Shown here: positions 17,841 to 50,320 of the stretch, piece after piece
How the letters are laid out: every line of letters begins with the position of its first letter
How positions within the stretch are numbered: the stretch's first letter is position 1
Source of the DNA: Acidobacteriota bacterium
GTDB taxonomy: Bacteria > Acidobacteriota > DATKUA01 > JAFGBY01
Assembly (NCBI GenBank): GCA_016932915.1
Contig: JAFGBY010000030.1
Coordinates: 9,671 to 73,670 of the forward strand
DNA: 64,000 nt
Direction of reading: 5' to 3'
Position numbers and translations under genes: made by a program
Notes under the pieces: generated by a model
Database searches by the model: none
The model's input: the letters and a program-made list of their open reading frames with translations, nothing else
Told to the model about the DNA's origin: nothing

Positions 17841-17852
17841 TAAGGAGTTCGT

Positions 17853-27343: not shown

Positions 27344-27373
27344 TGTTTCACTCGTTTTAATCAATTAAAGTAC

Positions 27374-28762
27374 TTAAAAACTAATTATTGTAGATACATA
27401 TATCCTTATTTCCTCAAAACTTGAGGTACTGTATGCATTATTGTTATCCAGGTAATCCCCGGATTCATAAAGTAAAGCTACATCGAATGCGACCGGCCCG
27501 GCTTTAATTCCCAGGCCACCAGTGATACCAAGAAATACTATTTTGTCGTTACTTGCATCCTTAAAGTACTGTGAATCAGTGAAAATACCAAACCTGAATG
27601 GGATAAGTATATCATTTGCCAGATATATATATTCAAAGCCAAACCGGAACTGTTCTGTATCTATTTGTTGAAGGTATTCTTCCGAGTTAACACCTTTCAT
27701 CGTTGGGAAATACACATCGATCGCATATTCCTCCGTTGCTGCATTATTAAAGTTCTTCAGAATCGCATCGGACCACATAGTCCTCGTATAATCAAAAGAA
27801 AAGGTCAACTGGTCCTCTGGTTGTATAGAAAGCCCCGCACCAAAGGTCATTGGCCATTCAAGCGTTGTACTCCCGGTAAATTCCCTATCCTCTATAGTCT
27901 GTGGAGTAAATTTAGAGCCGAACACCTGACCCTTCGCCAGGTTATCATATTCCACCTCTGCATCAAAAGCGCTTTTATAAACAATACCTATTTTTACTCC
28001 GTCGAATGGCTCGATAAGTGCGCCCAGAATCATATTAACCCCGGATATATCAAAAGAATGTTCTGTAGTATACCCAATATCTATAGTAGATATCTCACCA
28101 ATTCCTTCAATACCTTTGGAACCTGCTAGATGCTGATACGCAGTCCCACTATAGCCGTTCATCCAAATATTTATAGAAAAGCCAAAATTGATACCGCTCA
28201 TGATTTTTGAACCGAGACAGAATGAAACAGTATCGAAACCGCCACTGAAAACATCTTCGTATTTGAATCTTCCTTTAAAATAATAGGTCAAACGGGTTGC
28301 AGCGTCGTAACTTGTATTGGAAAACAATATTGAGTTCGCTTTATTCGTTATATCAAAACTTACAGCCCTCTGGTAGCTTATCTGGGGTACTATTTTAAAA
28401 TCGCCTATCCTGAATGGAAAAGTAAAAGACGCAAAATCAAATGTAAAAGATGTGCCACTGTAATCCTGTGTGCCGAGAAATTCATTTCCACCTGAACGGG
28501 CCGGGAACATGTTGCTGTAACTCTGGTTACGTAAGACAAAAGAAAATTCCGGTCGCTCCAGCTGGCCAAGCCCACCAGGATTCCACGAAGCCGCAGTAGC
28601 ATCATCCGCTACAGCGATAAAAGCGCCTCCCATCCCGAGAGCTCTTGCCCCGGAACCGACAACCCCGCTGAAATTCGTACGTGAAACAGACTGAGCAAAA
28701 CCCAGATGGCACAAGGATACAATCACTATAATTACCAGAAACAAGGCTGTTTTAAATTTCAT
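27374..28762 (-). CDS. Outer-membrane beta-barrel protein of the FadL/PorV-like type. Start re-assigned to the ATG at 28762.
   Basis: After the signal peptide: GARALGMGGAFIAVADDATAASWNPGGL (N-terminal hatch/NPA-like motif), then long amphipathic beta-strand-rich sequence. The family could not be resolved without a search. Confidence 0.5.
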   Translation of the reverse strand: MKFKTALFLVIIVIVSLCHLGFAQSVSRTNFSGVVGSGARALGMGGAFIAVADDATAASWNPGGLGQLERPEFSFVLRNQSYSNMFPARSGGNEFLGTQDYSGTSFTFDFASFTFPFRIGDFKIVPQISYQRAVSFDITNKANSILFSNTSYDAATRLTYYFKGRFKYEDVFSGGFDTVSFCLGSKIMSGINFGFSINIWMNGYSGTAYQHLAGSKGIEGIGEISTIDIGYTTEHSFDISGVNMILGALIEPFDGVKIGIVYKSAFDAEVEYDNLAKGQVFGSKFTPQTIEDREFTGSTTLEWPMTFGAGLSIQPEDQLTFSFDYTRTMWSDAILKNFNNAATEEYAIDVYFPTMKGVNSEEYLQQIDTEQFRFGFEYIYLANDILIPFRFGIFTDSQYFKDASNDKIVFLGITGGLGIKAGPVAFDVALLYESGDYLDNNNAYSTSSFEEIRIYVSTIISF

Positions 28763-28772
28763 TAAAAATTCC

Positions 28773-30101
28773 TTATTTATATACTTTAAAATGATTAATT
28801 GCATCCTCGGCAAAATTCGGACTAACATAATCATTGATAGATACAGCCTTACCTGAAACAATACGTATCTCCCGGCTCCTCCTCTGCTCATTCCATTGCG
28901 GGTGTGAGTAGGTTACCCGGTAATTGCCCGGGTTCAATGGAATCTGAGCCGGCGAAACTTTTACTGATTCATCGAGAGTAATTATTTGGCTATTGTCAGT
29001 ATTGACTATCTCATCGATAACAGCATATGGTTTCACGTTAAAAATAAGATTCCCCGCGATAATTCCACCAGTAGTATCCGTTTTATTAAATACAGCAACC
29101 CATAAAATAAAAACAATTGCCAGAACGGCAAATACGCTACCGGCAAGTATGGGAAAATTTTTCTTCCCTCTCTTCGTCTCTTTCTTCTTTTCTTCTTCCT
29201 GTTTCCCGTAATCTATTTCAGTATCTACAATAATGGTTTCCATTTTGTCATCGACTATCATTGTCGGTTCCTGAACATGAAAACCCTGTGTCGTGACTTT
29301 CTGGATCAGTCTTTCGATATCATCCGCCATCGCCTTCATTGTAGGATAGCGGTTTTCAGCCTTCTTCTGTAATGCTTTTTCACAAATGGAAACCAACTCT
29401 GGGAACCTGGATGTGGAAATATCAGAAAAACTTTTAGGCTCTTCACTTAAGATTTTATAGAGAATCGTGGAAATATTATCTCCGGAAAATGGCTTTGTAT
29501 AAGTAAGAATTTCATAAAGGATGACGCCTACCGCAAATTGATCCGAACGTCCGTCTACCTTTTTCCCGCTGACCATCTCAGGAGACATATAATGCGGAGT
29601 GCCCATGATTGTTCCGGTTTTGGTAAGGCCGGAGGTCTGCATGGTTGCCAGGCCAAAATCCATTATCTTTATCGTGCCGTCTGCCAATACTTTGATATTT
29701 GCCGGTTTAATATCACGGTGAAAAACATCATGCTTATGCGCATAATCAAGGCCAAGGCAGATCTGGCGAATAATATCCAGTTTCTCCTTTAGCGCCATAT
29801 CAGGTTTGGAAGCAATAATCGCATCGAGGTCTTTGCCCTCGAGTAATTCCATGGCAATAAATAGCTGGCCATCCTCTTCACCAAAATCGTAGATCGTAAT
29901 AATATTATTATGGCGCAGCTTACCGGCTGAACGGGCTTCACGTATAAATCTTTCCTTGAGGTCGGCATCAGATTCTGTAGATGATATCGTTTTAATTGCA
30001 ACTTGCCGCTCGAGAGTGGGATCGAACGCAAGATATACAACACCCATAGCGCCTTTCCCCAGTTCTTTTTCAACCCGGTATTTTCCGAAATTAGTTTTCA
30101 T
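28773..30101 (-). CDS. Hanks-type Ser/Thr protein kinase with a TM segment and a C-terminal extracytoplasmic PEGA-like domain
   Basis: GKGAMGVVYLA...AIK (subdomains I-II), HRDIKPANI, DFGLA, GTPHYMSPE. TM FPILAGSVFAVLAIVFILWVAVF. C-terminal VKVSPAQIPLNPGNYRVTYSHPQWN. Confidence 0.8.
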   Translation of the reverse strand: MKTNFGKYRVEKELGKGAMGVVYLAFDPTLERQVAIKTISSTESDADLKERFIREARSAGKLRHNNIITIYDFGEEDGQLFIAMELLEGKDLDAIIASKPDMALKEKLDIIRQICLGLDYAHKHDVFHRDIKPANIKVLADGTIKIMDFGLATMQTSGLTKTGTIMGTPHYMSPEMVSGKKVDGRSDQFAVGVILYEILTYTKPFSGDNISTILYKILSEEPKSFSDISTSRFPELVSICEKALQKKAENRYPTMKAMADDIERLIQKVTTQGFHVQEPTMIVDDKMETIIVDTEIDYGKQEEEKKKETKRGKKNFPILAGSVFAVLAIVFILWVAVFNKTDTTGGIIAGNLIFNVKPYAVIDEIVNTDNSQIITLDESVKVSPAQIPLNPGNYRVTYSHPQWNEQRRSREIRIVSGKAVSINDYVSPNFAEDAINHFKVYK

Positions 30102-35477: not shown

Positions 35478-35967
35478 CAAAACAAAAAAAACAGTAAGCA
35501 CTGACCCTGGTAATCGTGAAGATAAAGTTAATGTAACCCGGAGGAAATTTATAAGGGCCGGGATGGGAGCAGCAGGCGTTGCATATGCTGCCGCGCTCGG
35601 TTACCCGGTTTATAGATATCTGGCTGATCCGGCGGAGAAAGCAGCAGCGCAGGCAGCAGAGACAGAAAAAGAATTAGTCGGCGCGGATACGCTGCCGCAG
35701 GGAAGCGCAATGATTTTCCGTTTCGGCGGACAGCCTGCATTATTGATTCATCACGAAGATGGCTCGTGGGTATCGTTCAGCGCAGTATGTACTCACCTCG
35801 CCTGCACGGTTGAGTTCCAGAAAAAAGAAAAACGGATACACTGCGCGTGCCACGGCGGAACATACGATATGTACACGGGGAAGAACATAAGCGGTCCTCC
35901 CCCGAAACCGTTAACCCCTTTTAAAGTGGAGGTGTTAGATGGCAAAGTCAAAATCGCTAGGGCCTGA
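35470..35967 (+). CDS. Rieske [2Fe-2S] iron-sulfur protein with a Tat signal
   Basis: Twin-arginine motif TRRKFIRAGMGAAGVAYAAALG. Rieske boxes CTHLACTV and CACHGGTYD. Confidence 0.85.
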   Translation: MPDKTKKTVSTDPGNREDKVNVTRRKFIRAGMGAAGVAYAAALGYPVYRYLADPAEKAAAQAAETEKELVGADTLPQGSAMIFRFGGQPALLIHHEDGSWVSFSAVCTHLACTVEFQKKEKRIHCACHGGTYDMYTGKNISGPPPKPLTPFKVEVLDGKVKIARA

Positions 35968-37042: not shown

Positions 37043-37054
37043 AGGAGGTGGAAG

Positions 37055-38476: not shown

Positions 38477-38488
38477 AAAGACGAAAAT

Positions 38489-38520
38489 GCCGGGCCTTCA
38501 AAGCCCGGCATAATTTTGTT
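38489..38520. terminator. Bidirectional rho-independent terminator between the convergent 37055-38476 (+) and 38531-39082 (-) genes
   Basis: gccgggc-cttcaaa-gcccggc stem-loop flanked by aaaat on the left and ttttgttt on the right. Confidence 0.65.
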
Positions 38521-38530
38521 TGAAAAAAGA

Positions 38531-39082
38531 TTACAGCTTGACACCAATTACAAACAGGACCTCAAGACCACCTAAATCAGACTCTTCGATGCTGAGCAGA
38601 TAATATCTTGCTTCACCACCTATGAACAGCCCACCACCAAGACAGTAATTTAACCCTGCAGCAAACCAGGCACCAAGACCGCTATCATCTGTAATTCCTG
38701 ACATATCATAGCTGCCGAGTAATAAACCGGCGCCTATTTTCGGATCAAGGGCATCTTTACCAAGATGGTAATAGCCACCAAACAGAATAAAAGTCTGGTC
38801 AAGATCAAACAGCTCCAAAACAGAATCCATGGTTGAGAACAACGACAAGCCTGCCGTGAGTTCGATCTCAGGTGTAATCATAAAACCGGCATTTGCGCCA
38901 AAAGCAATGTTATGATCCCAGCTGTCACTAATATCGGAATTTGTAATAATGTGATAACCGATATTTGCTGAAAGTGTGAAACCGGAACTCTTTTTTACTG
39001 GCTCTTCCTGCGCAAAAGCGGTGAAGCTAAAGAGCAGCATAAGGCCCACCAACAACGAAACATAAATATTCTTCCTCATCAA
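38531..39082 (-). CDS. Small outer-membrane beta-barrel protein (OmpW/opacity-porin-like)
   Basis: Signal peptide. Alternating hydrophobic beta-strand pattern. C-terminal ...LFVIGVKL aromatic/hydrophobic terminus. 183 aa. Confidence 0.5.
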   Translation of the reverse strand: MMRKNIYVSLLVGLMLLFSFTAFAQEEPVKKSSGFTLSANIGYHIITNSDISDSWDHNIAFGANAGFMITPEIELTAGLSLFSTMDSVLELFDLDQTFILFGGYYHLGKDALDPKIGAGLLLGSYDMSGITDDSGLGAWFAAGLNYCLGGGLFIGGEARYYLLSIEESDLGGLEVLFVIGVKL

Positions 39083-39206: not shown

Positions 39207-40691
39207 CTATTGGAATCTGGAATAGTACTCAATAAATGTAGGATCGAATATCTTTTTACTAAAGCTGTATTCCGGGTCTAATTCTGACACTTTTTTCATA
39301 TATACTTCAGCGGAGGAAAGAAGATTTGCATCCTGTTCACCGGTCAATCTATATCTCGAGAAATATACAAGCCCCAGGAAAGCATTCATACCGGCGCTGT
39401 CTTCGTATGCCGGCAATGCTTCAAGGAAAGTATCCGTAGCTTTTTCCAGGTCTCCAGCTAAATAGTACTTCAAACCGATATTAATCTTATCCCGCCCAAC
39501 GACTTTAAAATCTTTATAGAATCCCCGGACCTGTTCATTTGTGCTGTCCAGTGCGTTGGCTTTATTGTAATAAGTCCTGGCGGACGAATAGTCTTTTTGA
39601 TCAAGCGCCTGTTTCGCGCCATCAATATATTCCCTGATTTCATCTTTCATCTTATCCGAACCGGAAGCAGCCTGGAGTTTTTTATTTATCTCCCCCAGCT
39701 GGTACTTCGCCCTGCTGTTTTCTGGATCAATTCTGAGGGCCCTTTCGAATTTCAATTTAGAATTCACCAGGTCGCCCGCTTTATAATCTTCTATTGCGTT
39801 ATCAACCAGCGCTTCCGCTTCCTTCTGTTTTTGCTGTGAGGCTGCTCTCTCAGAATTACTCCTCGCATCCCTGATAAGTTTATCCAATGTTTTATTTTCC
39901 GGTTGGAGGTTTTGCGCCTGTTTGTACATCTTTATCGCAGATGAATAATCGCCTGATTTTTCATAATCCTTACCGCTGTTTACATAGCGCTCCGCCTTTT
40001 CAGCATTATCAATTTTTGTAATCCATTGGCGCGCTTCTTTATTAGCTGAATCTTCTTTCAGTGCTTTATTGAAAGCGGTCTTTGCAGCTGAATAGTTCCC
40101 ACGGTCGTACTCGCGTCTACCATCTCGAATCGCATTATTGATTCGGCTTTGACGTTGTGCGTTTTGTAATTCTGTAGATGTCAAAACAGTCGTTGAAGTT
40201 TTAACCGTGGCGGTTGGCTGTACTGTAGTAGTGGCAGTGGGTGTAATCGATGTCGGAGTCACAACCGGTGTTGTTGTCGTAGTCGAAGTATTCTGGTTAG
40301 AAGCGCTCACACGCTGTTTTCCATCGCTCAACATACTGTTCAACCTTGAATACAAATCCTTACTTTCACGGATTTCGCCTTCCTGGTTAGAACGCTCAAG
40401 CCATGAAATCGCCTGTGAATAATTTTTTAGTTCATAATGGCAGAGGCCAAGATAATAATAAGGGAAATAATCGATATATTTAGTACCGTAAGCCCTTCTT
40501 CCGGCTTTCGGTGATGGTTCCTGAGCAATCAATCGGTTAAGGATGCTTACCGCCGCGCCGAAATTACCATCATCGATTAATTCTATTGCCCTCTCATATG
40601 TCTCGTACCATCTCTCAGCAAAAACTAATGATGAGAAAAGACAAATAACAACAAGCAGAACAACTGGGCTTTTAATTATATTTCTCATCAT
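39207..40691 (-). CDS. Secreted TPR-repeat protein with a Thr/Pro-rich linker. Paralogue of 26060-27343.
   Basis: Signal peptide. FAERWYETYERAIELIDDGNF...YIDYFPYYYLGLCHY block shared with the 26060 gene. TSTTTTTPVVTPTSITPTATTTVQPTATVKTSTTV linker. Many TPRs. Confidence 0.6.
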   Translation of the reverse strand: MMRNIIKSPVVLLVVICLFSSLVFAERWYETYERAIELIDDGNFGAAVSILNRLIAQEPSPKAGRRAYGTKYIDYFPYYYLGLCHYELKNYSQAISWLERSNQEGEIRESKDLYSRLNSMLSDGKQRVSASNQNTSTTTTTPVVTPTSITPTATTTVQPTATVKTSTTVLTSTELQNAQRQSRINNAIRDGRREYDRGNYSAAKTAFNKALKEDSANKEARQWITKIDNAEKAERYVNSGKDYEKSGDYSSAIKMYKQAQNLQPENKTLDKLIRDARSNSERAASQQKQKEAEALVDNAIEDYKAGDLVNSKLKFERALRIDPENSRAKYQLGEINKKLQAASGSDKMKDEIREYIDGAKQALDQKDYSSARTYYNKANALDSTNEQVRGFYKDFKVVGRDKINIGLKYYLAGDLEKATDTFLEALPAYEDSAGMNAFLGLVYFSRYRLTGEQDANLLSSAEVYMKKVSELDPEYSFSKKIFDPTFIEYYSRFQ

Positions 40692-42853
40692 TCAATCCCC
40701 AGTTCTTTAAGGAATGTCTCAGAATTCATATTCGAGATATTATAATTCAGGTTGTTGACCTGCCCCTCGACCACCGAAACATCGAAGGTCTTTCGGACAT
40801 TCAGACTGTCATTAAACACAGTGATCGTATACTGCCCTACTGGAAGTTTCAGCTCACATGGAGAGACCTTCCCGGCTACCTCTATTTCTTTATTTGAACT
40901 ATCCACAACTGACTCAATGGTTCCCCAGGGCACAACGTTTATTCTTACAAGCCCTTCTCCGGCTACAAGAGGACGGCCAATCGGCTCAGTTTCTTTACCC
41001 TTACCGGTAAATAGGATAACCGCCACGATGGCAATTGCGATAACTGCGACAACTCCTAATATTATTGGAAGTGGAGATTTTCCGGGTTTTTTTGCCTTGA
41101 TTGTAGCGGAAGGCTCCGGTTTGTATTCCTTTGCTGCTCCAGTATAAACAGTTGGGGCATCAGGTGCAATTTCCTGCTTTCGTATACCTGTAGTCGGCGT
41201 CGCGACAACAGTAGGAACAGAAGTACTTTCCATTCCTCCTGAATAAACAGTTTCCTGTTCTGCCGTTTTTGAACTTTTATCCATTAATGTGGCGACTTCA
41301 GAAGTTGTTTTCACACCTGCAGCGACAAATGTTTCGCTATCAGGAGGAACTGCAGCCCCCCCGGTAAGTTTATCCAATTCCGATTTTACTTTAAGGACAT
41401 CTGGATCGTTGGAATCAAGAGAAAGTGCAGCAGACAGGGATTTCTGCGCTTCATAATAATTCTTTACCCTTATGTTCTCCTTGATATGATTTAGAATCAT
41501 ATCAATTTGCTTCTTATCATCAGCCCGATCACGCTTGTTATTGATCGCCTCTCTTAATTCAGTGGAATATTTATTCTTTGGATCGATATCATCAAGAAGT
41601 TTAACTTCTTTTAACGCATCGATATATTGACCTTTGTTTATCAGTGTATTGATCTTCTTGACTTGATCATTAAGCAGCTGTTCTTTTTCCTTATCAGCAA
41701 TCGTAGTCTGGATACGGGAAATCATTATTTTAGCGGAAGTATCATCAGGAAGAATATCGAAAGCGCTTTCAGCCATTTTATAAGCTTCTTTAAATTTCTC
41801 TTCCTTGTAGAGTTTGTCGGCCTGTTTTAATATTCCCTCAACATCGCCTTTTTTAGTTTTGATAAGTTCCGATTCGACCTTTTCAATTAACCTCTTTAAA
41901 ACTGAATTATCAGGATCGAGAGATAGAGCTTTATTATATATCTCCGCTGCATTCTGGAATTTCTTCGCCTTCATCAGGTTTTTACCCTGTTCGATGAGCT
42001 TAACAATCTCTCCCTGAAGCGCTGGCTGAGTAGCCATTTTCTTTTCGCCGTAAAGATCAATGACGGCTTCGAGATCTTTGATCATCTCACTCATTGATTG
42101 ATATCTCTTCTCCTGTTCCTTCTCAACCGCTTTCATAATTACAGTTTCAATTTCGATAGGAACATCGAGATTCAACTCCTCAAAACTTGGCAGTGGTTCG
42201 TGGGCAATTTTATATAAAATAGTTGTGATCGATTCTGATGTAAAAGGTTTCTTGTGAGTCATCATCTCCCACAGGATTATACCTACAGAGAAAATATCTG
42301 AACGGTTATCGATCTTTTTACCCATAACCTGTTCGGGAGACATATAATCAGGGGTACCGATGATCATGCCGGTCTTGGTCATATCGGATGAAGCCATATG
42401 AGCAATACCAAAATCCATTAATTTAGCTTTACCGGTTTTAAGCAGCATTACATTAGCCGGTTTGATATCCCTATGAACAACTCCCTTGTTATGCGCGTAT
42501 TCGCATCCCTTACAAATCTGGAGAATGATATTTAGCTTCTCAGGAAGAGACAGTTCCTGCGTGAGCATTATATGCTTTAAATCATCGCCATCGAGAAATT
42601 CCATAGCGATATAATAGGTCTGGTCATCATGGCCTAAGTCATATATGGTGATTATATTCTCGTGGTTCAGCTGCGCTGCCGCCTGGGCTTCGATCAGGAA
42701 ACGTTTTAACATCTCCTCATCTTTATCAACGCCTTCTAACATAGTTTTCAGCGCAACAAGCCTGCCCAGAACGGAATCCCTGGCACGGTATACCATTCCC
42801 ATGGCGCCCTTGCCTAGTTCACCGATGATTTCATATTTTCCTATCTTCTTCAT
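40688..42853 (-). CDS. Hanks-type Ser/Thr protein kinase with intracellular TPR repeats, a TM segment and a C-terminal extracytoplasmic PEGA-like domain
   Basis: GKGAMGMVYRA, HRDIKPANVML, DFGIA, GTPDYMSPE. TM ILGVVAVIAIAIVAVILF. C-terminal KVSPCELKLPVGQYTITVF. Confidence 0.8.
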   Translation of the reverse strand: MKKIGKYEIIGELGKGAMGMVYRARDSVLGRLVALKTMLEGVDKDEEMLKRFLIEAQAAAQLNHENIITIYDLGHDDQTYYIAMEFLDGDDLKHIMLTQELSLPEKLNIILQICKGCEYAHNKGVVHRDIKPANVMLLKTGKAKLMDFGIAHMASSDMTKTGMIIGTPDYMSPEQVMGKKIDNRSDIFSVGIILWEMMTHKKPFTSESITTILYKIAHEPLPSFEELNLDVPIEIETVIMKAVEKEQEKRYQSMSEMIKDLEAVIDLYGEKKMATQPALQGEIVKLIEQGKNLMKAKKFQNAAEIYNKALSLDPDNSVLKRLIEKVESELIKTKKGDVEGILKQADKLYKEEKFKEAYKMAESAFDILPDDTSAKIMISRIQTTIADKEKEQLLNDQVKKINTLINKGQYIDALKEVKLLDDIDPKNKYSTELREAINNKRDRADDKKQIDMILNHIKENIRVKNYYEAQKSLSAALSLDSNDPDVLKVKSELDKLTGGAAVPPDSETFVAAGVKTTSEVATLMDKSSKTAEQETVYSGGMESTSVPTVVATPTTGIRKQEIAPDAPTVYTGAAKEYKPEPSATIKAKKPGKSPLPIILGVVAVIAIAIVAVILFTGKGKETEPIGRPLVAGEGLVRINVVPWGTIESVVDSSNKEIEVAGKVSPCELKLPVGQYTITVFNDSLNVRKTFDVSVVEGQVNNLNYNISNMNSETFLKELGIE

Positions 42854-42917
42854 ATCGGAATCTATCTCTCGTTCAATTAACTGAAAAATTATCTAAAAGT
42901 ATTACTAAGTAATCCCC

Positions 42918-44279
42918 TCAGAATGCTAATTTAAATTTTACTTTTAATCCCTGATGTTTGCTTAATTCAAGGAGGTCGTTATCCTTCAATACCTGAGCCA
43001 TTACCTTACGGCCATTTACATATGTGCCATTGAGGCTGCCCTTATCGACGATTACATATTCATTATCCTGGTAATGGATCTCCGCATGCAGTTTGCTTAC
43101 TCTGGGCTGCGGAATAACAATATCGTTCGATGAATGCCTGCCGATTTTGATCGGATGCTCCTTGTAAACCGGAGTTTCTTCCGCCCCCAACCCACTGATA
43201 TTTATCAGCTTGAAACCGATGGCCTGTGAAGGTTTATCCTGCGCGGCCGCATCCTCCAGGCTTGTGTTGTAATCAATCGAGGACGGCAGGGAATGCAGGG
43301 AAAAATCGACACTATCTACTGCAATCGAAGCCAAAGCGTCATAAAGTTCTCTTGCAGTGCTGAACCTGCTTGCAGGTTTTTTCTCAAGACACTTCATGAT
43401 TATCTTATCAAGGGTTGAAGAGATATTAACATCTTTAAGCTTCCCAACCTGCTTTGGCTTATCTTTTACCTGTTTGACCATAACGTCGACCGGATTCAGT
43501 GCATTAAATGGTACATCACCCGAAACGACCTCATACATGATTACTCCAAGCGAATAAAGATCAGCACGTTGATCCAGGGTTTCGCCCTGCACCTGCTCCG
43601 GTGACATGTACTGCGGGGTACCAAATACAACTCCTTTTTGAGTGAGTGTACCACCGGTTGTTCTGCCTCCGACATCCATCAGCTTAGCGATACCAAAATC
43701 GAGAACCTTCACAAAATCCTGCCGGTTATTCTTATTGCAGATCATGATGTTCTCGCTTTTTAAATCCCTGTGGATAATACCCTGGCCATGGGCTTCCTCC
43801 AGAACTTCACATATCTGGAGGAAAATCGGTATTGCCCTCTCTTCAGGGAAAGCGCCGTCACGAGTAATCAATACCTTCAAATCAAGGCCATTTATATATT
43901 CCAGGATAATATAAACGAGACCATCCTCGGTTTGCCCAAAATCATACATAGAAACCGCATTAGGATGAGAAAGTTTGGATGTGTTTTTTGCCTCCCGCCT
44001 GAATCTTTCGAACGATTCCGTATTCTCAGCAAAATCCTCCCTCAAGACTTTAATAGCGACATCCTTATCGAGCATAAGGTGTTTTGCCCTGAAAACATAC
44101 CCCATGCCTCCTTCACCCAGTTTCTCTGAGATTACATAATGGCCACCGATCTTTTTACCGATAAATGTAATTTCGGTCGCAGGTGTGGCAGGAAGCCTAT
44201 TGCCACAAAACGGACAGAACTTCCCTTCACTAAAAAAATCGGCAGTTATATCTTTAGTGCAATATGGACAAGCCGGCAT
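42918..44279 (-). CDS. Ser/Thr protein kinase with an N-terminal zinc ribbon and a C-terminal FHA domain
   Basis: CPYCTKDI...CPFCGN. Kinase motifs HRDLKSENIM, DFGIAK, GTPQYMSPE. FHA IKIGRHSSNDIVIP...VIVDKGSLNGTYVNGRKV. Confidence 0.8.
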   Translation of the reverse strand: MPACPYCTKDITADFFSEGKFCPFCGNRLPATPATEITFIGKKIGGHYVISEKLGEGGMGYVFRAKHLMLDKDVAIKVLREDFAENTESFERFRREAKNTSKLSHPNAVSMYDFGQTEDGLVYIILEYINGLDLKVLITRDGAFPEERAIPIFLQICEVLEEAHGQGIIHRDLKSENIMICNKNNRQDFVKVLDFGIAKLMDVGGRTTGGTLTQKGVVFGTPQYMSPEQVQGETLDQRADLYSLGVIMYEVVSGDVPFNALNPVDVMVKQVKDKPKQVGKLKDVNISSTLDKIIMKCLEKKPASRFSTARELYDALASIAVDSVDFSLHSLPSSIDYNTSLEDAAAQDKPSQAIGFKLINISGLGAEETPVYKEHPIKIGRHSSNDIVIPQPRVSKLHAEIHYQDNEYVIVDKGSLNGTYVNGRKVMAQVLKDNDLLELSKHQGLKVKFKLAF

Positions 44280-44315
44280 CTCGTTATTATCTTAATTTAT
44301 TTTCCAGTTAATATG

Positions 44316-45761
44316 TTACAGACCCGGTACCAGACGAGCAGCATGTTCGATCATTATGCCTTCGTTAAGTGTTTCGGCAAACCGCCGGGTCATTACTCCA
44401 ATAACATACCCGTCTTCAGTAAAGATGGGGCCACCACTGTTCCCCGGTAAAACGGATACATCCAACTGTATGGTATTTTCAATCTTACGTATTCTCCCGA
44501 AAGAAGGAGAAGCGTTTGTATTCGCGAGCTCCTGCGGAGAAATACCAAGAGGGAAACCATATACCATAACCGTATCAGCGACTTTATAAGGATCGCGCCC
44601 ACGGTAAATTTTTACGCTTTTAAAAGTCCCGCCAATGGCTTTGAGAATTGCTATATCATTATTATCGCGTTCATGTACTTCAACGTTTATCCCGGCAACC
44701 CAATCCGGATTACGTTTCGGCCTGTACATCCTGTCCTCGGCTGTCGTAAATATCTCAAGGTTGCCATCACGGGTGTTATAAGAATTTTCAAAAGTATATT
44801 TTCCGCCCGCTCTGAACCTCACGCCATTCACCCAAACACTGAGGAAATGATCAACGCGTAAATCCAATGATTTGCTCAGTTCCATCTCATATGCCCACTC
44901 TGGTTGGAATTTCCACGGGTACACGATATGTTTACATGTTACAAGGTATCCATCATCACGAACGAAGAAACCTGTACCATAACTTTCAAGGCTCTTTTTG
45001 AATTTTCCGTTATCATCATAGAAATCAAACCTCGAATAAACGAAGGCAACACTTTGCTTGTGTGTTTCGATCAGGTTGTAGAGTTTATCTTTAGCGCTTG
45101 CCATTTCGGAAGTTATCCGATCAGTCTCAGCCCGCGCTTCTGCAGTTTCCTGCTGAGCTTGCTGTAAATCGTCTTTTACTTCTTTTCCCTGCATCACCAG
45201 GAATACAATAGCACCAATAAGCGCCAGAATAAAAAATGAAGTGACAACTTTAAAAGTACGAGAAGATTTTTTAAGCGCGTTATTAACAGCTTCTTTAATA
45301 AATACAGCGGTACCACCGATTGCGCCACGGTCGGAGGATTTCGCTTTTTGTAGAGCATCATCTATCATCATCGCAACAGTCTGGCTTCCCACTCCTCTTC
45401 CCTGATCGACAGCCTGTGAAACACGCGTTTTAGGAGATGTATCTGACATCCCCGGCAGGGCAATCTGAACTGATGAGCGAGGCCCACCTTTTCCGAATTC
45501 AATATCATCCCCGTTATTGAGTTTTACCCGGGTTATTTTTTTACCGTTAACATACGTGCCGTTTGTACTGCCAAGATCTTCAAGCCAGTACGCTCCATCT
45601 TCCAATGTGATAACAGCATGATTCTTGGAAGCATCAAGATCAGTTTTCGGATCAAACCTCAGGTTATTATCCGATCCCCGTCCGATTGTTATCTTACCCT
45701 GCGAAAATTCCTCTAATTTCCCTTTTAAGGAACCCGCATTGAATGATAATTTTATGCTCAT
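44316..45761 (-). CDS. FHA domain - TM - trypsin-like (S1/HtrA-type) serine protease fusion protein
   Basis: N-terminal FHA (ITIGRGSDNNLRF...LEDLGSTNGTYVNGKKI). TM SFFILALIGAIVFLVM. Catalytic triad candidates TCKHIV (His), NDIAILKA (Asp), PGNSGGPIF (Ser). Confidence 0.7.
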   Translation of the reverse strand: MSIKLSFNAGSLKGKLEEFSQGKITIGRGSDNNLRFDPKTDLDASKNHAVITLEDGAYWLEDLGSTNGTYVNGKKITRVKLNNGDDIEFGKGGPRSSVQIALPGMSDTSPKTRVSQAVDQGRGVGSQTVAMMIDDALQKAKSSDRGAIGGTAVFIKEAVNNALKKSSRTFKVVTSFFILALIGAIVFLVMQGKEVKDDLQQAQQETAEARAETDRITSEMASAKDKLYNLIETHKQSVAFVYSRFDFYDDNGKFKKSLESYGTGFFVRDDGYLVTCKHIVYPWKFQPEWAYEMELSKSLDLRVDHFLSVWVNGVRFRAGGKYTFENSYNTRDGNLEIFTTAEDRMYRPKRNPDWVAGINVEVHERDNNDIAILKAIGGTFKSVKIYRGRDPYKVADTVMVYGFPLGISPQELANTNASPSFGRIRKIENTIQLDVSVLPGNSGGPIFTEDGYVIGVMTRRFAETLNEGIMIEHAARLVPGL

Positions 45762-45779
45762 CGCATCCTCCTTGGATTA

Positions 45780-46784
45780 TTATTGAATTTCAGAATCAGC
45801 AGGGGGAACAATGTAACGTGATGTTTTTTCCAAAACATCATCTTCAGGGCTTGTGAAGTCTACGGTATCCGGTCCATCCGTCTTCTCTGTATCGGATGCC
45901 CTGTTATATGATGCCAGGATAATAGTTATATTATCTTTGCCCCCGGAATTATTCGCTTCCTGTACTAACCTCTTAACCGCTGTTGTTGTATTTGCGGAAG
46001 TCTGAATAATTTCGAAAATCTTCTCATCCAATACCATGTCAGTTAGTCCATCACTACATAACAATATTTTATCATTGGACTGAAGACTAAGTGTATAAAA
46101 GCCAACTTCAACACGTTCGGAAACACCAACAGCCTGCAAAATAACATTTTTAGCAAGATGATGCCGTGCTTCTTCTTTAGTAATGTTTCCCGCTTCGACA
46201 AGTTTACTGACAAGCGACTGGTCTTTTGTAACCTGTATAAAATCATTATCACGAACAAGGTAAAGCCTGCTATCCCCAACCTGTGCGATAAAAAGTTCGT
46301 TCTCAATAATTACAGAGGCGGTAATAGTCGCCCCCATCCCATTATATTTTGAGTTTTTCATCGCTGCTCTGAAAACATCTCTGTTCGCTGTTTTTATTCC
46401 GCCCTGGAGAACAGTGGGAAATTCGTCATTGTCCGGAATCTTTTCGCACCAATTTTTCCTGAACCAGGATTCCATTGAATCTCTTACCATCTGACTGGCA
46501 ACATCACCTGCTGCCGCGCCACCCATACCATCTGTTACCATCAACAGTATGCCTTTGTCTAATGTCGATGCTATCATTTCCTCATCAGACTCAAGCGTCA
46601 AACTTGAGTTGAGATTCATTAGAAGATAGTTATCTTCATTATGTTTTCGCTGACGTCCCACATCGGTATCGTAGGCAAAAACCAGGTAATCGCCCTGCAT
46701 AACTTTCTGGATTTCCTCGGGCGAAAGTTTAATTGTCCTTCTTGATTCGGTGAAATCCTCTTTTTTCTTTCCAAATATAGACAT
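45780..46784 (-). CDS. PP2C-family Ser/Thr protein phosphatase
   Basis: MVTDGMGGAAAGDVAS, LLCSDGLTD, NNSGGKDNITII, the PP2C metal-binding motifs. Confidence 0.85.
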   Translation of the reverse strand: MSIFGKKKEDFTESRRTIKLSPEEIQKVMQGDYLVFAYDTDVGRQRKHNEDNYLLMNLNSSLTLESDEEMIASTLDKGILLMVTDGMGGAAAGDVASQMVRDSMESWFRKNWCEKIPDNDEFPTVLQGGIKTANRDVFRAAMKNSKYNGMGATITASVIIENELFIAQVGDSRLYLVRDNDFIQVTKDQSLVSKLVEAGNITKEEARHHLAKNVILQAVGVSERVEVGFYTLSLQSNDKILLCSDGLTDMVLDEKIFEIIQTSANTTTAVKRLVQEANNSGGKDNITIILASYNRASDTEKTDGPDTVDFTSPEDDVLEKTSRYIVPPADSEIQ

Positions 46785-46795
46785 CCAATTGAGTC

Positions 46796-47698
46796 CTATA
46801 AAATCGGAGCACGATATTTAAAGAGTTGTTTTCCAATTAATAAATGGTCATTGTCTTCCAGCTCAAGTTTCTTTTTAATCTGGATAAATACACCATTACT
46901 ACTACTATTATCTTCGATATAAAATTTCCCTCGTTCATGAGAAAGTATTGCATGACGGTTTGACATAAATTTGTCGTCGGGGAATGAAATATCTCCGCTC
47001 TGGCGCCCGATGAATACGGTATCGTGCGTAATATAATACCTGTTTCCTTCAGCCCTGTTAGAATAGATTTGAATAAGTATAGCGACTATTTTTTTACTTG
47101 AAGCGCCATAATAATTAAATATTTCCTCAGTTTCGTCCTGCAGTGGGATATCCAGGTCTTCAGATGAATATGTCTTGAATTTCAGTAATTGCTGCCCCAT
47201 CAGGATATAAGCATCATTGTATAATTCCGTTCTTTCACTTATTTTATAAAAAATCCCATTAAATGTATCTATGTCTTCCACAATCATTTTATCATCAACA
47301 AATTGAAATGCAGCATGTTCGGGGGATAGGTATGTATCCGCAGGAAAAGTGATGTCTCCCGAAGATCTTCCCAATACCGTTCTTTTCTTCGTTATCTCAT
47401 AGGATTTACCTTCAGAGGAGTCATCATTGATCTGGATAAGTTTTGGATTTATCCTGGCATCAGCAGCTGATTGATAAATTCTGGTTTTTGCAGGGTCTTC
47501 GCCTTCGCTTAGTTCCAGAAATTCATCCAGGTTTTTTGCTATCCTTGTTTTTGGTACGTTATCATTCTCTTGATTCATAGGATTCGCAACAGCATCACCT
47601 GCTATTTCTGTAGCATCATCATCCAGTTTTGCGCCGCACTGCATACAAAAAACATAATTATCATCATTTTGATTACCGCAGTTTGGACATAGTTTCAT
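46796..47698 (-). CDS. Zinc-ribbon protein with two FHA domains
   Basis: CPNCGNQ...CMQCG. FHA1 TVLGRSSGDITFPADTYLSPEHAAFQF. FHA2 TVFIGRQSGDISFPDDKFMSNRHAILS...SSSNGVFI. SD taaggagt upstream. Confidence 0.7.
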   Translation of the reverse strand: MKLCPNCGNQNDDNYVFCMQCGAKLDDDATEIAGDAVANPMNQENDNVPKTRIAKNLDEFLELSEGEDPAKTRIYQSAADARINPKLIQINDDSSEGKSYEITKKRTVLGRSSGDITFPADTYLSPEHAAFQFVDDKMIVEDIDTFNGIFYKISERTELYNDAYILMGQQLLKFKTYSSEDLDIPLQDETEEIFNYYGASSKKIVAILIQIYSNRAEGNRYYITHDTVFIGRQSGDISFPDDKFMSNRHAILSHERGKFYIEDNSSSNGVFIQIKKKLELEDNDHLLIGKQLFKYRAPIL

Positions 47699-47754
47699 AA
47701 AAATACTCCTTAAAAGTCTAAAAATAAAACTGAGTTTTATCTATTATAAACTAT

Positions 47755-47976
47755 CAACTGTCCTTTTTATTAGTCCGTGAAGCAATAAATCCAATACATA
47801 CTGCGATTCCCGCTCCTATCAGCCCACCTACCAGGGGGCCCGGGCCTACAACAGCCCTGGCACCTCAGGTATTACCTGTACTGCCACCACCGAGTGAAAG
47901 CAGGAGGCCAATTCCCGCACCCATCATTATCAGTCCGTTATAGCGCCTGAAAAATTCTCTAAGCTTTTCTTCCATC
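47755..47976 (-). pseudogene. Small glycine-zipper membrane peptide ORF interrupted by an in-frame TGA (36 codons, TGA, then 36 more in-frame codons)
   Basis: My translation: MEEKLREFFRRYNGLIMMGAGIGLLLSLGGGSTGNT * GARAVVGPGPLVGGLIGAGIAVCIGFIASRTNKKDS. The Gly-zipper character continues across the stop. Confidence 0.3.
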
Positions 47977-49781: not shown

Positions 49782-50320
49782 TATTTCTCCTTTAAATCGA
49801 GTTTCAAACGTTCCCGCATTTCCAGGAAAAAATCGAGATACGCTTTTGTCTTATAATCAGGATAAGTCCAGGGCATAAACTCAACACCTGATTTGGAATG
49901 GAAAATGTAATCAACCTGGGCGTAAATTCCTCCGGCAAGATAAATCCTGTGAGCAAATGGTTTTGCTGAAGCAAGCACCATACTCGATAATGTAATATAA
50001 CCGGGGTCAAGATTTACCGGCCTATCCACTCCTGGCAAATTGGAGCTATATTTGTTCTCTATTTCATTTGTTTTAATTTTAACATTACTGAGCTTATCCG
50101 GAGTTATCAAATCAGAGAAAGAGAACAGGAATTTCTTGAGATCAGATCCCATCTGTGATTTGTAATAATCGGTAAAATCCCAGTTAACAGGACCGGTTTT
50201 GATATCGATTTGAGAAAACTCCTTTTCAAGGTCGGAGCATAAATCTTCAATAAAATCCAAGGATGCTGTGAGCACTCCGCAGAATAGCTTTACTTTTTCT
50301 ACATCTTTTATCCGTGCCAT
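49781..50320 (-). CDS. Conserved hypothetical protein. Its stop overlaps the ggt start by 1 nt.
   Basis: 179 aa, no recognisable motif. Tight translational coupling with ggt. Confidence 0.4.
   Translation of the reverse strand: MARIKDVEKVKLFCGVLTASLDFIEDLCSDLEKEFSQIDIKTGPVNWDFTDYYKSQMGSDLKKFLFSFSDLITPDKLSNVKIKTNEIENKYSSNLPGVDRPVNLDPGYITLSSMVLASAKPFAHRIYLAGGIYAQVDYIFHSKSGVEFMPWTYPDYKTKAYLDFFLEMRERLKLDLKEK

What the first reader, a model, noticed from the sequence alone, without database searches (positions are those of the whole stretch)
39207..47698. Six-gene Ser/Thr phospho-signalling operon whose gene order parallels the actinobacterial fhaA-fhaB-pstP...pknA-pknB locus
On the minus strand, packed with short gaps and overlaps, the order is: a zinc-ribbon protein with two FHA domains, a PP2C phosphatase, an FHA-TM-trypsin-like protease, a zinc-ribbon kinase with C-terminal FHA, a kinase with TPR and an extracellular PEGA domain, and a secreted TPR protein. 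FHA, FHA, PP2C, then two kinases is the same order as the Fha/PstP/Pkn division-site operon of Actinobacteria. This organism is clearly diderm and unrelated to Actinobacteria. The membrane-spanning protease occupies the position where RodA/PbpA sit in that operon. The cluster has both a kinase with an extracellular sensor (PEGA) and a cytoplasmic one with a phospho-threonine reader (FHA). This looks like a complete, self-contained sensing and readout system.
Basis: partly seen in the sequence, partly recalled or inferred. Interest (0 to 1): 0.65.

Follow-up and report, generated by a model that had tools for sequence, protein, structure and literature searches.

The report
Kinase/FHA operon with membrane-anchored periplasmic protease
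Six adjacent genes in an uncultured Gram-negative-type bacterium really do encode a phospho-threonine signalling set (two kinases, a phosphatase, four phospho-threonine reader domains), and its unusual, evolutionarily conserved partner is a membrane-anchored periplasmic protease, but the likeness to the actinobacterial cell-division operon is generic rather than a true correspondence.

Summary
Six tightly packed minus-strand ORFs (39207-47698) encode: Zn-ribbon+2xFHA; a Stp1-type PP2C; FHA-TM-HtrA-like protease; Zn-ribbon-kinase-FHA; kinase-TPR-TM-small periplasmic beta-sandwich; and a secreted TPR protein. Only "PEGA" is unconfirmed (sub-threshold in 1 of 7 relatives). The source is an NCBI MAG labelled Acidobacteria bacterium, and it is diderm (BamA, LpxD, LpxI, TolC-like).

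The same six-gene order recurs in at least four related metagenomic lineages. A core of FHA-anchored protease, PP2C and kinase(s), usually with a separate FHA protein, recurs in shuffled order in Gemmatimonadota and two other distant lineages. So the module is real and its defining member is the protease.

The actinobacterial parallel is weak. There is no RodA/PbpA, no PASTA and no membrane-anchored PP2C. FHA+PP2C+kinase linkage is generic: 42 of 80 random FHA loci have both.

Best reading, by inference only: a receptor kinase with its TPR partner (a pair duplicated as a unit elsewhere in the window) drives pThr/FHA docking. Docking sites would be conserved P-[KR]-T-R linker motifs, and docking would control the periplasmic protease.

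This is a new variant of a known kind, of moderate interest. Side finding: a conserved small ORF with an in-frame TGA lies just upstream.

The parts
46796..47698 (-). g1: cytoplasmic Zn-ribbon (aa 4-25) + disordered linker + FHA1 (about aa 85-175) + FHA2 (about aa 205-295). No TM segment.
   Evidence: Pfam Zn_Ribbon_1 and 2 FHA domains. GR..SxxH..NG pThr-binding residues are present in both FHAs. Best PDB sequence match is the Zn-finger/FHA protein ArnA, 5a8i. NCBI name: FHA domain-containing protein, MBN2134430.1.
47543..47554 (-). g1 linker motif P-K-T-R (aa 49-52). It is invariant in 4 lineages inside an otherwise variable linker. A second A-[KR]-T motif lies at aa 70-73. Candidate phospho-acceptor and FHA-docking sites.
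   Evidence: Orthologue alignment; motif scan. Phosphorylation is inferred, not shown.
45780..46784 (-). g2: soluble PP2C Ser/Thr phosphatase with a conserved C-terminal tail motif, K-T-S-R-Y-[IV]-[IV]-P-P.
   Evidence: PP2C/PP2C_2. NCBIfam Stp1/IreP equivalog above cutoff. No hydrophobic segment. Tail alignment.
44316..45761 (-). g3: bitopic protein. Cytoplasmic FHA (aa 1-101, nt 45459-45761), disordered linker with P-[KR]-T-R (aa 110-113, nt 45423-45434), TM plus a long stalk helix (aa 170-237), and a periplasmic HtrA-like S1 protease without PDZ (aa 238-481, nt 44319-45050).
   Evidence: Pfam FHA + Trypsin_2. Catalytic H278/D369/S442 invariant. AF2 model with pLDDT 79.5, FHA and protease above 90, linker below 50. 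Foldseek top hits are HtrA1/DegS protease domains at E about 1e-12. PDB sequence hits are MucD/DegQ/DegS and GarA.
42918..44279 (-). g4: soluble kinase. N-terminal CxxC..CxxC zinc ribbon, Hanks-type kinase (aa 48-309) and C-terminal FHA (aa 377-439).
   Evidence: Pkinase 6.8e-56 and FHA 5e-20. VAIK, HRDLKSEN and DFG are present, with a TxT-like activation loop, TLTQKG. Most conserved gene of the set (64-73% identity).
40688..42853 (-). g5: receptor kinase. Kinase (aa 7-259), cytoplasmic TPR/helical region, Thr-rich juxtamembrane segment (14 Thr in 85 aa), TM (about aa 593-617) and a periplasmic beta-sandwich domain (aa 625-721, nt 40691-40981).
   Evidence: Pkinase 3.2e-54 and TPR. Closest solved kinase domains are Stk1/StkP/PknB at 1e-54. 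TM and Thr counts. Beta-sandwich model. PEGA is only sub-threshold in one orthologue.
39207..40691 (-). g6: secreted (signal-peptide) TPR protein with a Thr/Pro-rich linker. It overlaps g5 by 4 nt and is the fastest-evolving member (30-39% identity).
   Evidence: TPR families. Hydrophobic N-terminus with conserved A/S-[EA]-[KR]-W-Y after it. Identities.
47753..47975 (-). Possible seventh member: a 73-codon small ORF with two Gly-zipper-like hydrophobic segments and a conserved in-frame TGA, ending 54 nt upstream of g1.
   Evidence: Same ORF, same TGA position and coding-type conservation downstream of the TGA in L001, L089, L090 and L109. A hairpin directly follows the UGA in each. No Rfam or Pfam match.
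38487..39082 (-). Downstream OMP beta-barrel gene (38531-39082) and the first strong terminator-like hairpin (38487-38511). Possibly co-transcribed, but not conserved next to the cluster in relatives.
   Evidence: OMP_b-brl 6.9e-10. An 11-bp stem with a T-run, and no comparable terminator between g6 and this gene. Relatives have other downstream genes.
26060..30101 (-). Paralogous sensor pair elsewhere in the window. Kinase-TM-beta-sandwich (28773-30101): kinase domain 50% identical to g5, same C-terminal domain. FadL-like OMP (27374-28891). Secreted TPR protein (26060-27364): paralogue of g6.
   Evidence: Pfam. BLASTP of kinase domains. g6 against the TPR protein, E 8e-34. C-terminal domains, E 1e-8.

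Best explanation
This is a Hanks-type Ser/Thr phospho-signalling operon whose conserved partner, and probable output, is a membrane-anchored periplasmic HtrA-like protease carrying a cytoplasmic FHA domain.

Shown by the sequence:
- Two predicted-active kinases: one a receptor with a small periplasmic beta-sandwich, one soluble with its own FHA.
- One Stp1-type PP2C.
- Four FHA domains with intact pThr-binding residues.
- An S1 protease with an intact catalytic triad on the periplasmic side of a single TM helix.
- A secreted TPR protein translationally coupled to the receptor kinase.

Inferred mechanism:
1. The receptor kinase g5, together with periplasmic g6, senses an envelope cue.
2. g5 autophosphorylates its Thr-rich juxtamembrane segment and, alone or through g4, phosphorylates conserved P-[KR]-T-R threonines in the disordered linkers of g1 and g3.
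3. FHA-pThr contacts then assemble a multivalent complex of g5, g4, g1 and g3 at the membrane.
4. Clustering of g3 through its cytoplasmic FHA and linker and its long stalk helix brings the PDZ-less HtrA-type protease domains together and switches periplasmic proteolysis on or relocates it. This would be inside-out control.
5. The PP2C g2 resets the system.

The target is most likely in the cell envelope, but it is unknown.
For: - Domain content and catalytic or binding residues.
- Topology: one TM segment in g3 and in g5, a signal-peptide-like start in g6, none in g1, g2 or g4. The AF2 model of g3 shows confident FHA and protease domains joined by a disordered linker and a 68-residue helix. 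The protease domain matches HtrA1/DegS folds.
- Conservation of the whole six-gene order in relatives with 57-67% identical protease, on contigs with a different downstream flank in L001.
- Cross-phylum recurrence of the core in other orders. Gemmatimonadota: ZnR-FHA(-FHA)/kinase/PP2C/FHA-TM-protease. L129: protease/kinase/PP2C/kinase. L130: FHA-FHA-protease/FHA/PP2C/kinase-FHA/kinase. L005 and L086: a kinase next to the protease.
- The FHA-TM module also occurs fused to a lytic transglycosylase domain next to an FHA protein and a kinase-TPR.
- Islands of conservation around Thr in otherwise variable linkers: g1 PKTR, g3 P[KR]TR, g2 KTSRY, g5 juxtamembrane. T-R motifs occur in the same linker of distant homologues.
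- The g5/g6 pair is duplicated as a unit in the window, which argues that kinase and TPR protein work together.
- Precedents, known from literature: Fha binding to pThr of membrane protein TssL activates T6SS (PMC3953482); ArnA Zn-finger/FHA complexes (PMC6509490).
Against: - No experimental data exist for any member. Phosphosites, FHA partners, protease substrate and the direction of signalling are all inferred.
- Within the close clade the flanking genes (DUF4416-GGT upstream, Rieske/cytochrome b downstream) are syntenic too. Clade-level synteny alone is therefore weak evidence of functional linkage.
- FHA-TM-protease genes occur without an adjacent kinase in about 5 of 11 informative lineages: L085, L095, L097, L099, L128.
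- FHA genes are generically linked to kinases and PP2C, so the adjacency does not prove that the protease is the output rather than one of several FHA clients.
- The T-R motif is short and could recur by chance in distant homologues.
- The promoter and terminator scan is uninformative: 20 promoter-like sites found against 23 expected.
Confidence: 0.5

Rival explanations
1. One reading: a counterpart of the actinobacterial fhaA-fhaB-pstP-rodA-pbpA-pknA-pknB division and cell-wall operon, with the protease standing in for RodA/PbpA. On this view the cluster regulates peptidoglycan growth and division.
For: - The positional order matches: FHA protein, PP2C, membrane/periplasmic enzyme, kinase, kinase.
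- The kinase domains are closest to PknB/StkP/Stk1 among solved structures.
- In a Gemmatimonadaceae contig the homologous cassette lies among peptidoglycan-turnover genes: Amidase_3, GH3/NagZ-like, AnmK, a MurQ-like SIS protein.
- The FHA-TM module is also found fused to an SLT lytic transglycosylase.
Against: - There is no SEDS or PBP gene in the cluster or anywhere in the window.
- There is no PASTA domain, and PknB_PASTA_kin is below cutoff.
- The PP2C is not membrane-anchored.
- FhaB_Rv0019c is below cutoff, and the 'two FHA' are one protein.
- Gene order differs among homologous cassettes.
- FHA+PP2C+kinase linkage is generic, 42 of 80 loci.
- PknB-like best hits are what any bacterial Hanks kinase gives.
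Confidence: 0.12
2. Outside-in or feedback variant: the protease is not the output but a regulator of the sensor. It is docked through its FHA to the activated (phosphorylated) receptor kinase and cleaves the periplasmic TPR partner g6 or the g5 ectodomain, terminating or resetting signalling. The true outputs are unlinked cytoplasmic substrates.
For: - g3, g5 and g6 all expose domains to the periplasm.
- g6 has a long Thr/Pro-rich, probably exposed linker and evolves fastest.
- DegS-type regulated proteolysis of periplasmic or anchored regulators is established biology (own knowledge).
- DegS is among the best structural matches.
Against: Cassettes in Gemmatimonadota, L129 and L130 keep the protease, kinase and PP2C but have no g6-like TPR gene. 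The window paralogue pair of kinase and TPR protein has no protease. So the protease and the TPR partner are not obligatorily coupled.
Confidence: 0.15
3. Anti-phage or conflict system: kinase plus protease effector acting as an abortive-infection module.
For: PADLOC kinase models (PD-T4-6, mad6) and RT-Protease_XI match g4, g5 and g3. NCBIfam MADS6 gives a partial match.
Against: - The matches cover only the generic kinase or trypsin domains.
- g1, g2 and g6 have no PADLOC hit.
- The cluster sits in a conserved housekeeping neighbourhood (GGT, menaquinone biosynthesis, HisRS, cytochrome b/Rieske) that is syntenic across relatives.
- There are no mobile-element signs and the GC content is even.
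- The protease faces the periplasm.
Confidence: 0.03
4. Chance juxtaposition of independent signalling genes in a kinase-rich genome, with no functional unit.
For: The genome has at least three Hanks kinases in 64 kb. The flanks are syntenic in relatives, so co-occurrence inside the clade could reflect general collinearity.
Against: Junctions of 64 nt or less and a 4-nt overlap. The block is intact where the downstream flank differs, in L001. The protease/PP2C/kinase/FHA combination recurs in rearranged form in at least four distant lineages.
Confidence: 0.03

Closest known systems
Actinobacterial fhaA-fhaB-pstP-rodA-pbpA-pknA-pknB locus (M. tuberculosis Rv0020c-Rv0014c)
   Same: - FHA reader(s), one PP2C and two Hanks kinases in one co-directional cluster, with an envelope-facing enzyme between phosphatase and kinases.
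- Kinase domains are PknB-like, with Thr pairs in the activation loop.
- One kinase is a receptor with a Thr-rich juxtamembrane segment.
   Different: - No RodA/PbpA and no PASTA repeats.
- The PP2C is soluble.
- The FHA proteins have other architectures: Zn-ribbon-FHA-FHA, FHA-TM-protease and kinase-FHA.
- There is an extra secreted TPR partner.
- The organism is diderm.
- The shared features are generic to bacterial FHA loci.
Type VI secretion threonine-phosphorylation pathway (PpkA / PppA / Fha-TagH, with periplasmic partners such as TagR or RtkS; Fha-pThr-TssL in Agrobacterium, PMC3953482)
   Same: - A receptor Hanks kinase with a periplasmic domain and a periplasmic partner protein.
- A cognate PP2C.
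- An FHA protein that docks on a phosphorylated membrane component to switch on an envelope machine.
- The g5 ectodomain model weakly resembles a chain of the RtkS-PpkA complex, 9k1u (E 0.019).
   Different: No T6SS genes are in the window. TagH NCBIfam scores are 31-43 bits against a cutoff of 120. The FHA is fused to the effector enzyme itself rather than being a soluble adaptor.
M. tuberculosis Rv1747 (FHA-FHA-ABC transporter regulated by PknF)
   Same: - Cytoplasmic FHA domain(s) fused through a disordered, Thr-bearing linker to a membrane protein.
- g1 mirrors its FHA-linker-FHA regulatory module.
- The Rv1747 FHA is among the PDB sequence hits of g3.
- FHA-ABC transporters are among the homologues of the g3 FHA.
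   Different: The output domain is a periplasmic serine protease, not an ABC exporter. The kinases and phosphatase are encoded in the same operon.
HtrA/DegS family (S1C) periplasmic proteases
   Same: The protease fold and catalytic triad match. The best sequence and structure hits are MucD, DegQ, DegS and HtrA1. Like DegS, it is anchored by one N-terminal TM helix.
   Different: There is no PDZ domain, which is the usual regulatory element. Instead there is a cytoplasmic FHA domain and a long stalk helix. Regulation from the cytoplasmic side is implied.
Sulfolobus ArnA (Zn-finger + FHA) of the archaellum regulatory network
   Same: This is the best solved-structure match of g1 (5a8i, E 3.6e-9, over the Zn-ribbon and linker). 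It is a Zn-ribbon-FHA adaptor controlled by Hanks kinases and a phosphatase (PMC6509490).
   Different: ArnA has one FHA and works with a vWA protein in transcription-level control in an archaeon. g1 has two FHAs, and there is no vWA partner.

Membership tests
Actinobacterial Fha/PstP/RodA/PbpA/Pkn division locus | pstP genetically linked to rodA (SEDS) and pbpA (class B PBP) | tested here: not met
   No SEDS or transpeptidase family in the cluster or in any ORF of at least 150 aa in the window. The definition comes from PMC6554272.
Actinobacterial Fha/PstP/RodA/PbpA/Pkn division locus | PknB-type kinase with extracellular PASTA repeats | tested here: not met
   No PASTA hit. NCBIfam PknB_PASTA_kin scores 329.8 (g4) and 337.8 (g5) bits against a cutoff of 450, and matches the kinase domain only.
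Actinobacterial Fha/PstP/RodA/PbpA/Pkn division locus | PstP is a transmembrane PP2C | tested here: not met
   g2 has no hydrophobic segment; the maximum 19-residue hydropathy is 1.19. Its catalytic domain does pass the Stp1/IreP model.
Actinobacterial Fha/PstP/RodA/PbpA/Pkn division locus | Separate FhaA and FhaB/FipA genes | tested here: not met
   FhaB_Rv0019c scores 75.1 (g1) and 63.6 (g3) bits against a cutoff of 125. The two FHA domains lie in one Zn-ribbon protein.
Actinobacterial Fha/PstP/RodA/PbpA/Pkn division locus | Gene order: FHA, PP2C, envelope enzyme(s), kinase, kinase | tested here: met
   The order holds positionally. It is not conserved among homologous cassettes in other phyla.
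Stp1/IreP family PP2C phosphatases | Score above the NCBIfam equivalog cutoff; metal-binding Asp motifs | tested here: met
   NF033484 scores 252.8 against a cutoff of 230. The DGMGG, SDGL and GGKDNIT motifs are visible in the sequence.
HtrA (S1C) proteases | Chymotrypsin-fold protease with a His-Asp-Ser triad | tested here: met
   H278/D369/S442 are invariant. Foldseek matches HtrA1/DegS at E about 1e-12, with TM-score to target about 0.75.
HtrA (S1C) proteases | One or two C-terminal PDZ domains | tested here: not met
   No PDZ hit. The protein ends about 20 residues after the protease domain. degP_htrA_DO scores 48.8 against a cutoff of 416.
PEGA domain (PF08308) | Score at or above the Pfam gathering threshold (20.8 bits) | tested here: not met
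   The window g5 C-terminus gives no hit at E<=10. The L001 orthologue scores 18.5 bits. L003, L089, L090, P0249 and the window paralogue give none. The fold is a small beta-sandwich compatible with PEGA or CarboxypepD_reg-like domains, but the PDB matches are weak.
T6SS threonine phosphorylation pathway | TagH-type FHA and neighbouring T6SS core genes | tested here: not met
   VI_FHA TagH scores 31-43 bits against a cutoff of 120. No T6SS families appear among the window ORFs.
Functional FHA domains | Conserved Gly-Arg, Ser-x-x-His and Asn-Gly pThr-binding residues | tested here: met
   All four FHA domains carry them: g3 G27-R28, S45, H48, N67-G68, invariant in 17 sequences; g1 and g4 by inspection and orthologue alignment. 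Binding itself cannot be tested with these tools.
Known anti-phage defence systems (PADLOC) | System-specific models for several members | tested here: not met
   Only generic kinase and trypsin-domain matches were found. g1, g2 and g6 have none.

The most novel reading that the evidence does not exclude
The FHA-TM-HtrA-like protease is the defining effector of a previously undescribed, phylum-spanning module, seen in an Acidobacteria-labelled lineage, Gemmatimonadota and at least two further unnamed lineages. In this module cytoplasmic Ser/Thr kinase activity gates proteolysis in the periplasm. Gating would work through FHA-pThr-driven clustering of the protease across the inner membrane, which is inside-out signalling and the reverse of DegS-type envelope sensing. 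Sister architectures carrying a lytic transglycosylase in place of the protease would extend the same logic to other periplasmic hydrolases.
Probability: 0.3. Interest if true: 0.7.

Novelty: new variant of a known kind. Interest (0 to 1): 0.45.

Why it matters
Hanks-type kinase/PP2C/FHA cassettes are common in bacteria, but very few have a known output. Most of what is known comes from Actinobacteria, Firmicutes and T6SS regulation.

Here the output candidate is written into the operon. It is a protease whose catalytic domain is in the periplasm while its phospho-threonine reader is in the cytoplasm. The pairing with kinases and a PP2C is kept across distant phyla in different gene orders.

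If the inferred logic is right, it would be an example of cytoplasm-to-periplasm control of proteolysis by Ser/Thr phosphorylation. It would also supply testable phosphosites (T51 and T72 of g1, T112 of g3). Tractable relatives exist: Gemmatimonadota include cultured species, and an FHA-FHA-trypsin protein was catalogued in Bacteroides thetaiotaomicron (PMC2605481).

The result also corrects an attractive but misleading analogy with the mycobacterial division operon.

Tried and rejected
- The genome-contig scan with the full-length protease alignment chose a pattern inside the FHA domain (STNGTYVN[GD]). It returned mostly generic FHA loci. These served only as a baseline and for the Planctomycetota and Gemmatimonadota hits.
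- The first metagenome scan, using the window protease domain alone, found nothing. The repeat with an alignment of close relatives worked.
- An exact-sequence contig look-up of the window protease and of HisRS found no record. The source was identified through cluster look-up instead.
- The defence-system reading was rejected.
- Rfam found nothing in the cluster or in the upstream gap.
- The promoter and terminator scan was no better than shuffles for promoters. The only strong terminator lies after the downstream OMP gene.
- Literature searches found no functional study of an FHA-trypsin protein. The only mention was a catalogue entry from 2008.
- ETTQ/TxT-type GarA motifs were looked for in the FHA partners and not found. 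The conserved Thr motifs are of the P-[KR]-T-R type.

Full report
**1. What is in the sequence**

Window 39207-47698 holds six minus-strand ORFs with junctions of 11, 18, 36 and 64 nt and a final 4-nt overlap.

- g1 (46796-47698) has a zinc ribbon and two FHA domains.
- g2 (45780-46784) is a PP2C that passes the NCBIfam Stp1/IreP equivalog cutoff (252.8 against 230 bits).
- g3 (44316-45761) has an N-terminal FHA, one hydrophobic helix and a Trypsin_2 domain.
- g4 (42918-44279) has a CxxC..CxxC N-terminus, a Hanks kinase domain and a C-terminal FHA.
- g5 (40688-42853) has a kinase domain, TPR repeats, one TM helix and a C-terminal domain of about 100 residues.
- g6 (39207-40691) has a signal-peptide-like start and TPR repeats.

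A hydropathy scan gives one TM-grade segment in g3 (about residues 170-192) and one in g5 (about 593-617). It finds an N-terminal hydrophobic segment in g6 and none in g1, g2 or g4.

Functional residues are intact:
- All four FHA domains keep the GR / SxxH / NG pThr-binding residues.
- Both kinases keep the VAxK Lys, HRD..N, DFG and a Thr pair in the activation loop.
- The protease triad H278/D369/S442 is invariant in 17 homologues down to 25% identity.

The one claim not confirmed is PEGA. The window protein has no PEGA hit even at E<=10. One orthologue reaches 18.5 bits against a cutoff of 20.8, and five other relatives give nothing. An AF2 model of the domain is a beta-sandwich, but it has only weak PDB matches, the best at E 3.7e-3.

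**2. Source and setting**

The six proteins and the nearby HisRS are identical to MBN2134425-MBN2134430 and MBN2134436 of an NCBI MAG labelled 'Acidobacteria bacterium'. They carry generic names there: FHA domain-containing protein, protein kinase, hypothetical protein. The next named HisRS relatives are only 47-50% identical (Calditrichota, Tectomicrobia, Gemmatimonadota), so the lineage is poorly sampled.

The window encodes BamA, LpxD, LpxI, a TolC-like OEP, OMP barrels and TonB/ExbBD, so 'diderm' is correct. The whole stretch from about 39 kb to 64 kb is co-directional. A 370-nt gap precedes g1. The first strong terminator-like hairpin lies after the OMP gene downstream of g6 (38487-38511). 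The promoter scan is no better than shuffles.

**3. Conservation**

The protease is the most distinctive member, so it was used to find relatives.

Close relatives:
- The identical six-gene order occurs in L001/L002 (an NCBI MAG, protease 67% identical), in L089 and in L090 (57-58%).
- The same order is seen as far as the contigs reach in L088, L109, L003 and L004.
- Per-gene identity to the window ranges from 64-73% (g4) to 30-39% (g6).

A caveat applies to the close clade. Its flanks are syntenic too, with DUF4416-GGT upstream and Rieske/cytochrome b/bd-like genes downstream. Only L001 has a different downstream flank and so tests the block separately.

The stronger evidence comes from distant lineages, where the components recur in other orders:
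- Gemmatimonadota (L087, L008, L014): ZnR-FHA(-FHA) / kinase / PP2C / FHA-TM-protease.
- L129: protease / kinase / PP2C / kinase.
- L130: FHA-FHA-protease / FHA / PP2C / kinase-FHA / large kinase.
- L005 (Planctomycetota) and L086: a kinase beside the protease.

Five other lineages have the protease without an adjacent kinase: L085, L095, L097, L099 and L128.

An exhaustive HMMER search finds 108 representatives (50%-identity clusters) with E<=1e-30. Many match both the FHA and protease halves of the query. The window's own clade collapses to one full-length representative plus a fragment.

A sister architecture replaces the protease with an SLT lytic transglycosylase. It also sits next to an FHA protein and a kinase-TPR gene.

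**4. Anatomy of the protease**

AF2 with 17 sequences gave a mean pLDDT of 79.5. The model has four parts:
- a confident FHA domain (residues 1-101);
- a disordered linker (103-170);
- one continuous helix (170-237) that includes the TM segment and a periplasmic stalk;
- a confident protease domain (238-481).

Foldseek places the protease with HtrA1, DegS and Deg proteases (E about 1e-12, TM-score to target about 0.75). The sequence search gives MucD, DegQ and DegS. There is no PDZ domain.

**5. Candidate phospho-sites**

In orthologue alignments the variable linkers contain islands of conservation centred on Thr:
- P-K-T-R (invariant) and A-[KR]-T in the g1 linker;
- P-[KR]-T-R in the disordered g3 linker;
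- K-T-S-R-Y-[IV]-[IV]-P-P in the PP2C tail;
- T-V/T-I motifs in the Thr-rich juxtamembrane segment of g5 (14 Thr in 85 residues).

T-R motifs also occur in the equivalent linker of distant homologues: NKTRVV, KPTRL, ATRN and STRVV. These are short and could be chance. No GarA-type ETTS/ETTQ motif was seen.

**6. Modularity**

The window holds a second kinase (28773-30101). Its kinase domain is 50% identical to that of g5, and it carries the same TM plus C-terminal domain (E 1e-8). It is followed by a FadL-like OMP and a secreted TPR protein (26060-27364) that is a clear paralogue of g6 (E 8e-34).

The receptor kinase and its TPR partner were therefore duplicated as a unit. This argues that they act together as the sensing part. 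g1-g4 then form a separable FHA/PP2C/protease/kinase part, which is what recurs in other phyla.

**7. Mechanism (inference)**

Steps shown by sequence: the topology, the intact catalytic and pThr-binding residues, and the conserved Thr islands in disordered linkers.

Steps inferred:
- g5 with g6 senses a periplasmic cue.
- Phosphorylated juxtamembrane and linker threonines recruit the FHA domains of g4, g1 and g3.
- Multivalent FHA-pThr contacts cluster g3. PDZ-less HtrA-type domains need oligomerisation to be active, so clustering would gate periplasmic proteolysis.
- The PP2C reverses the process.

Precedents are Fha-pThr-TssL in T6SS activation (PMC3953482), the FHA-linker-FHA module of Rv1747, and ArnA (PMC6509490). 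ArnA is the best solved match of g1.

A feedback variant, in which the protease trims the sensor, cannot be excluded. A cell-envelope or peptidoglycan target is suggested only by the Gemmatimonadaceae neighbourhood (amidase, NagZ-like, AnmK and MurQ-like genes) and by the SLT sister architecture.

**8. Comparison with the actinobacterial operon**

That locus is defined by pstP linked to rodA, pbpA and a PASTA kinase, plus fhaA and fhaB (PMC6554272). Here every one of those defining features fails:
- there is no SEDS or PBP gene;
- there is no PASTA domain (PknB_PASTA_kin 330-338 bits against 450);
- the PP2C is soluble;
- FhaB_Rv0019c scores below its cutoff.

Only the positional order matches, and order varies among homologous cassettes. 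FHA genes are generically linked to kinases and PP2C: of 80 unselected FHA loci (median 17 kb), 50 carry a kinase, 59 a PP2C and 42 both. The resemblance is the common grammar of bacterial Ser/Thr signalling operons, not a specific correspondence.

The defence-system reading is rejected, since PADLOC gives only generic domain hits.

**9. Novelty**

The searchable literature holds no functional study of an FHA-anchored trypsin or HtrA-like protease. A 2008 survey lists one FHA-FHA-Tryp protein in Bacteroides thetaiotaomicron (PMC2605481). The cassette is a new variant of a known kind of system. It is well supported as a conserved module, but its mechanism is untested.

**10. Side observation**

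A 73-codon ORF (47753-47975) lies between GGT and g1 on the same strand. It encodes two Gly-rich hydrophobic segments separated by an in-frame TGA.

The ORF, the TGA position (..G-[GN]-T-TGA-G-x-R-A..) and coding-type conservation downstream of the TGA are kept in L001, L089, L090 and L109. A hairpin follows the UGA in each sequence, with different stem sequences.

This pattern fits a small selenoprotein or programmed read-through. Rfam and Pfam have no match. The Sec machinery could not be checked in this window.

Noticed in passing
window 47753-47975 (- strand); also L001 7782-8014 and L089/L090/L109, roughly 7000-7230: A small ORF of 73 codons lies just upstream of g1: MEEKLREFFRRYNGLIMMGAGIGLLLSLGGGSTGNT*GARAVVGPGPLVGGLIGAGIAVCIGFIASRTNKKDS. 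It has an in-frame TGA. The TGA position and the amino-acid sequence on both sides are conserved in four related lineages, with synonymous third-position changes. A hairpin directly follows the UGA in each. It is a candidate small membrane selenoprotein or a programmed read-through. There is no Rfam or Pfam match.
   Followed up: partly
window 26060-30101 (- strand): A second receptor kinase (28773-30101) has a kinase domain 50% identical to g5 and the same TM plus C-terminal beta domain. It is followed by a FadL/TodX-like outer-membrane protein (27374-28891) and a secreted TPR protein (26060-27364) paralogous to g6 (E 8e-34). This is a duplicated kinase + TPR sensor pair without FHA, PP2C or protease genes.
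   Followed up: partly
window 48069-50320; L001 5468-7710; L089 4380-6648; L087 15076-16863: Gamma-glutamyltranspeptidase (with DUF4416 in the close clade) lies immediately upstream of the cluster in all close relatives. A GGT gene also lies 3.6 kb from the homologous cassette in a Gemmatimonadaceae contig. This may be coincidence or a functional link; it was not tested.
   Followed up: no
L087 3642-15033 (Gemmatimonadaceae contig): The four-gene homologous cassette (ZnR-FHA, kinase, PP2C, FHA-TM-protease) is flanked by peptidoglycan turnover genes: Amidase_3, GH3 (NagZ-like), AnmK, and a SIS/MurQ-like gene.
   Followed up: no
L127 7152-9716: The FHA plus juxtamembrane module of g3 also occurs fused to an SLT lytic transglycosylase domain (FHA-FHA-SLT, P0022). 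That gene is divergently adjacent to an FHA protein and a kinase-TPR gene.
   Followed up: partly
window 34332-38476 (+ strand); L003 6608-10735; L089 15871-20047: A conserved four-gene set lies next to the cluster and is syntenic across the clade: an unknown 381-aa protein, a Rieske protein, cytochrome b, and a protein with only a partial Cyt_bd_oxida_I match (N-terminal half).
   Followed up: no
window 14096-20447 (+ strand): Two consecutive large O-antigen-ligase-like (Wzy_C) membrane proteins are present, one with C-terminal TPR. They are followed by an 864-aa fusion of an MFS-like membrane domain with a spermidine-synthase domain.
   Followed up: no
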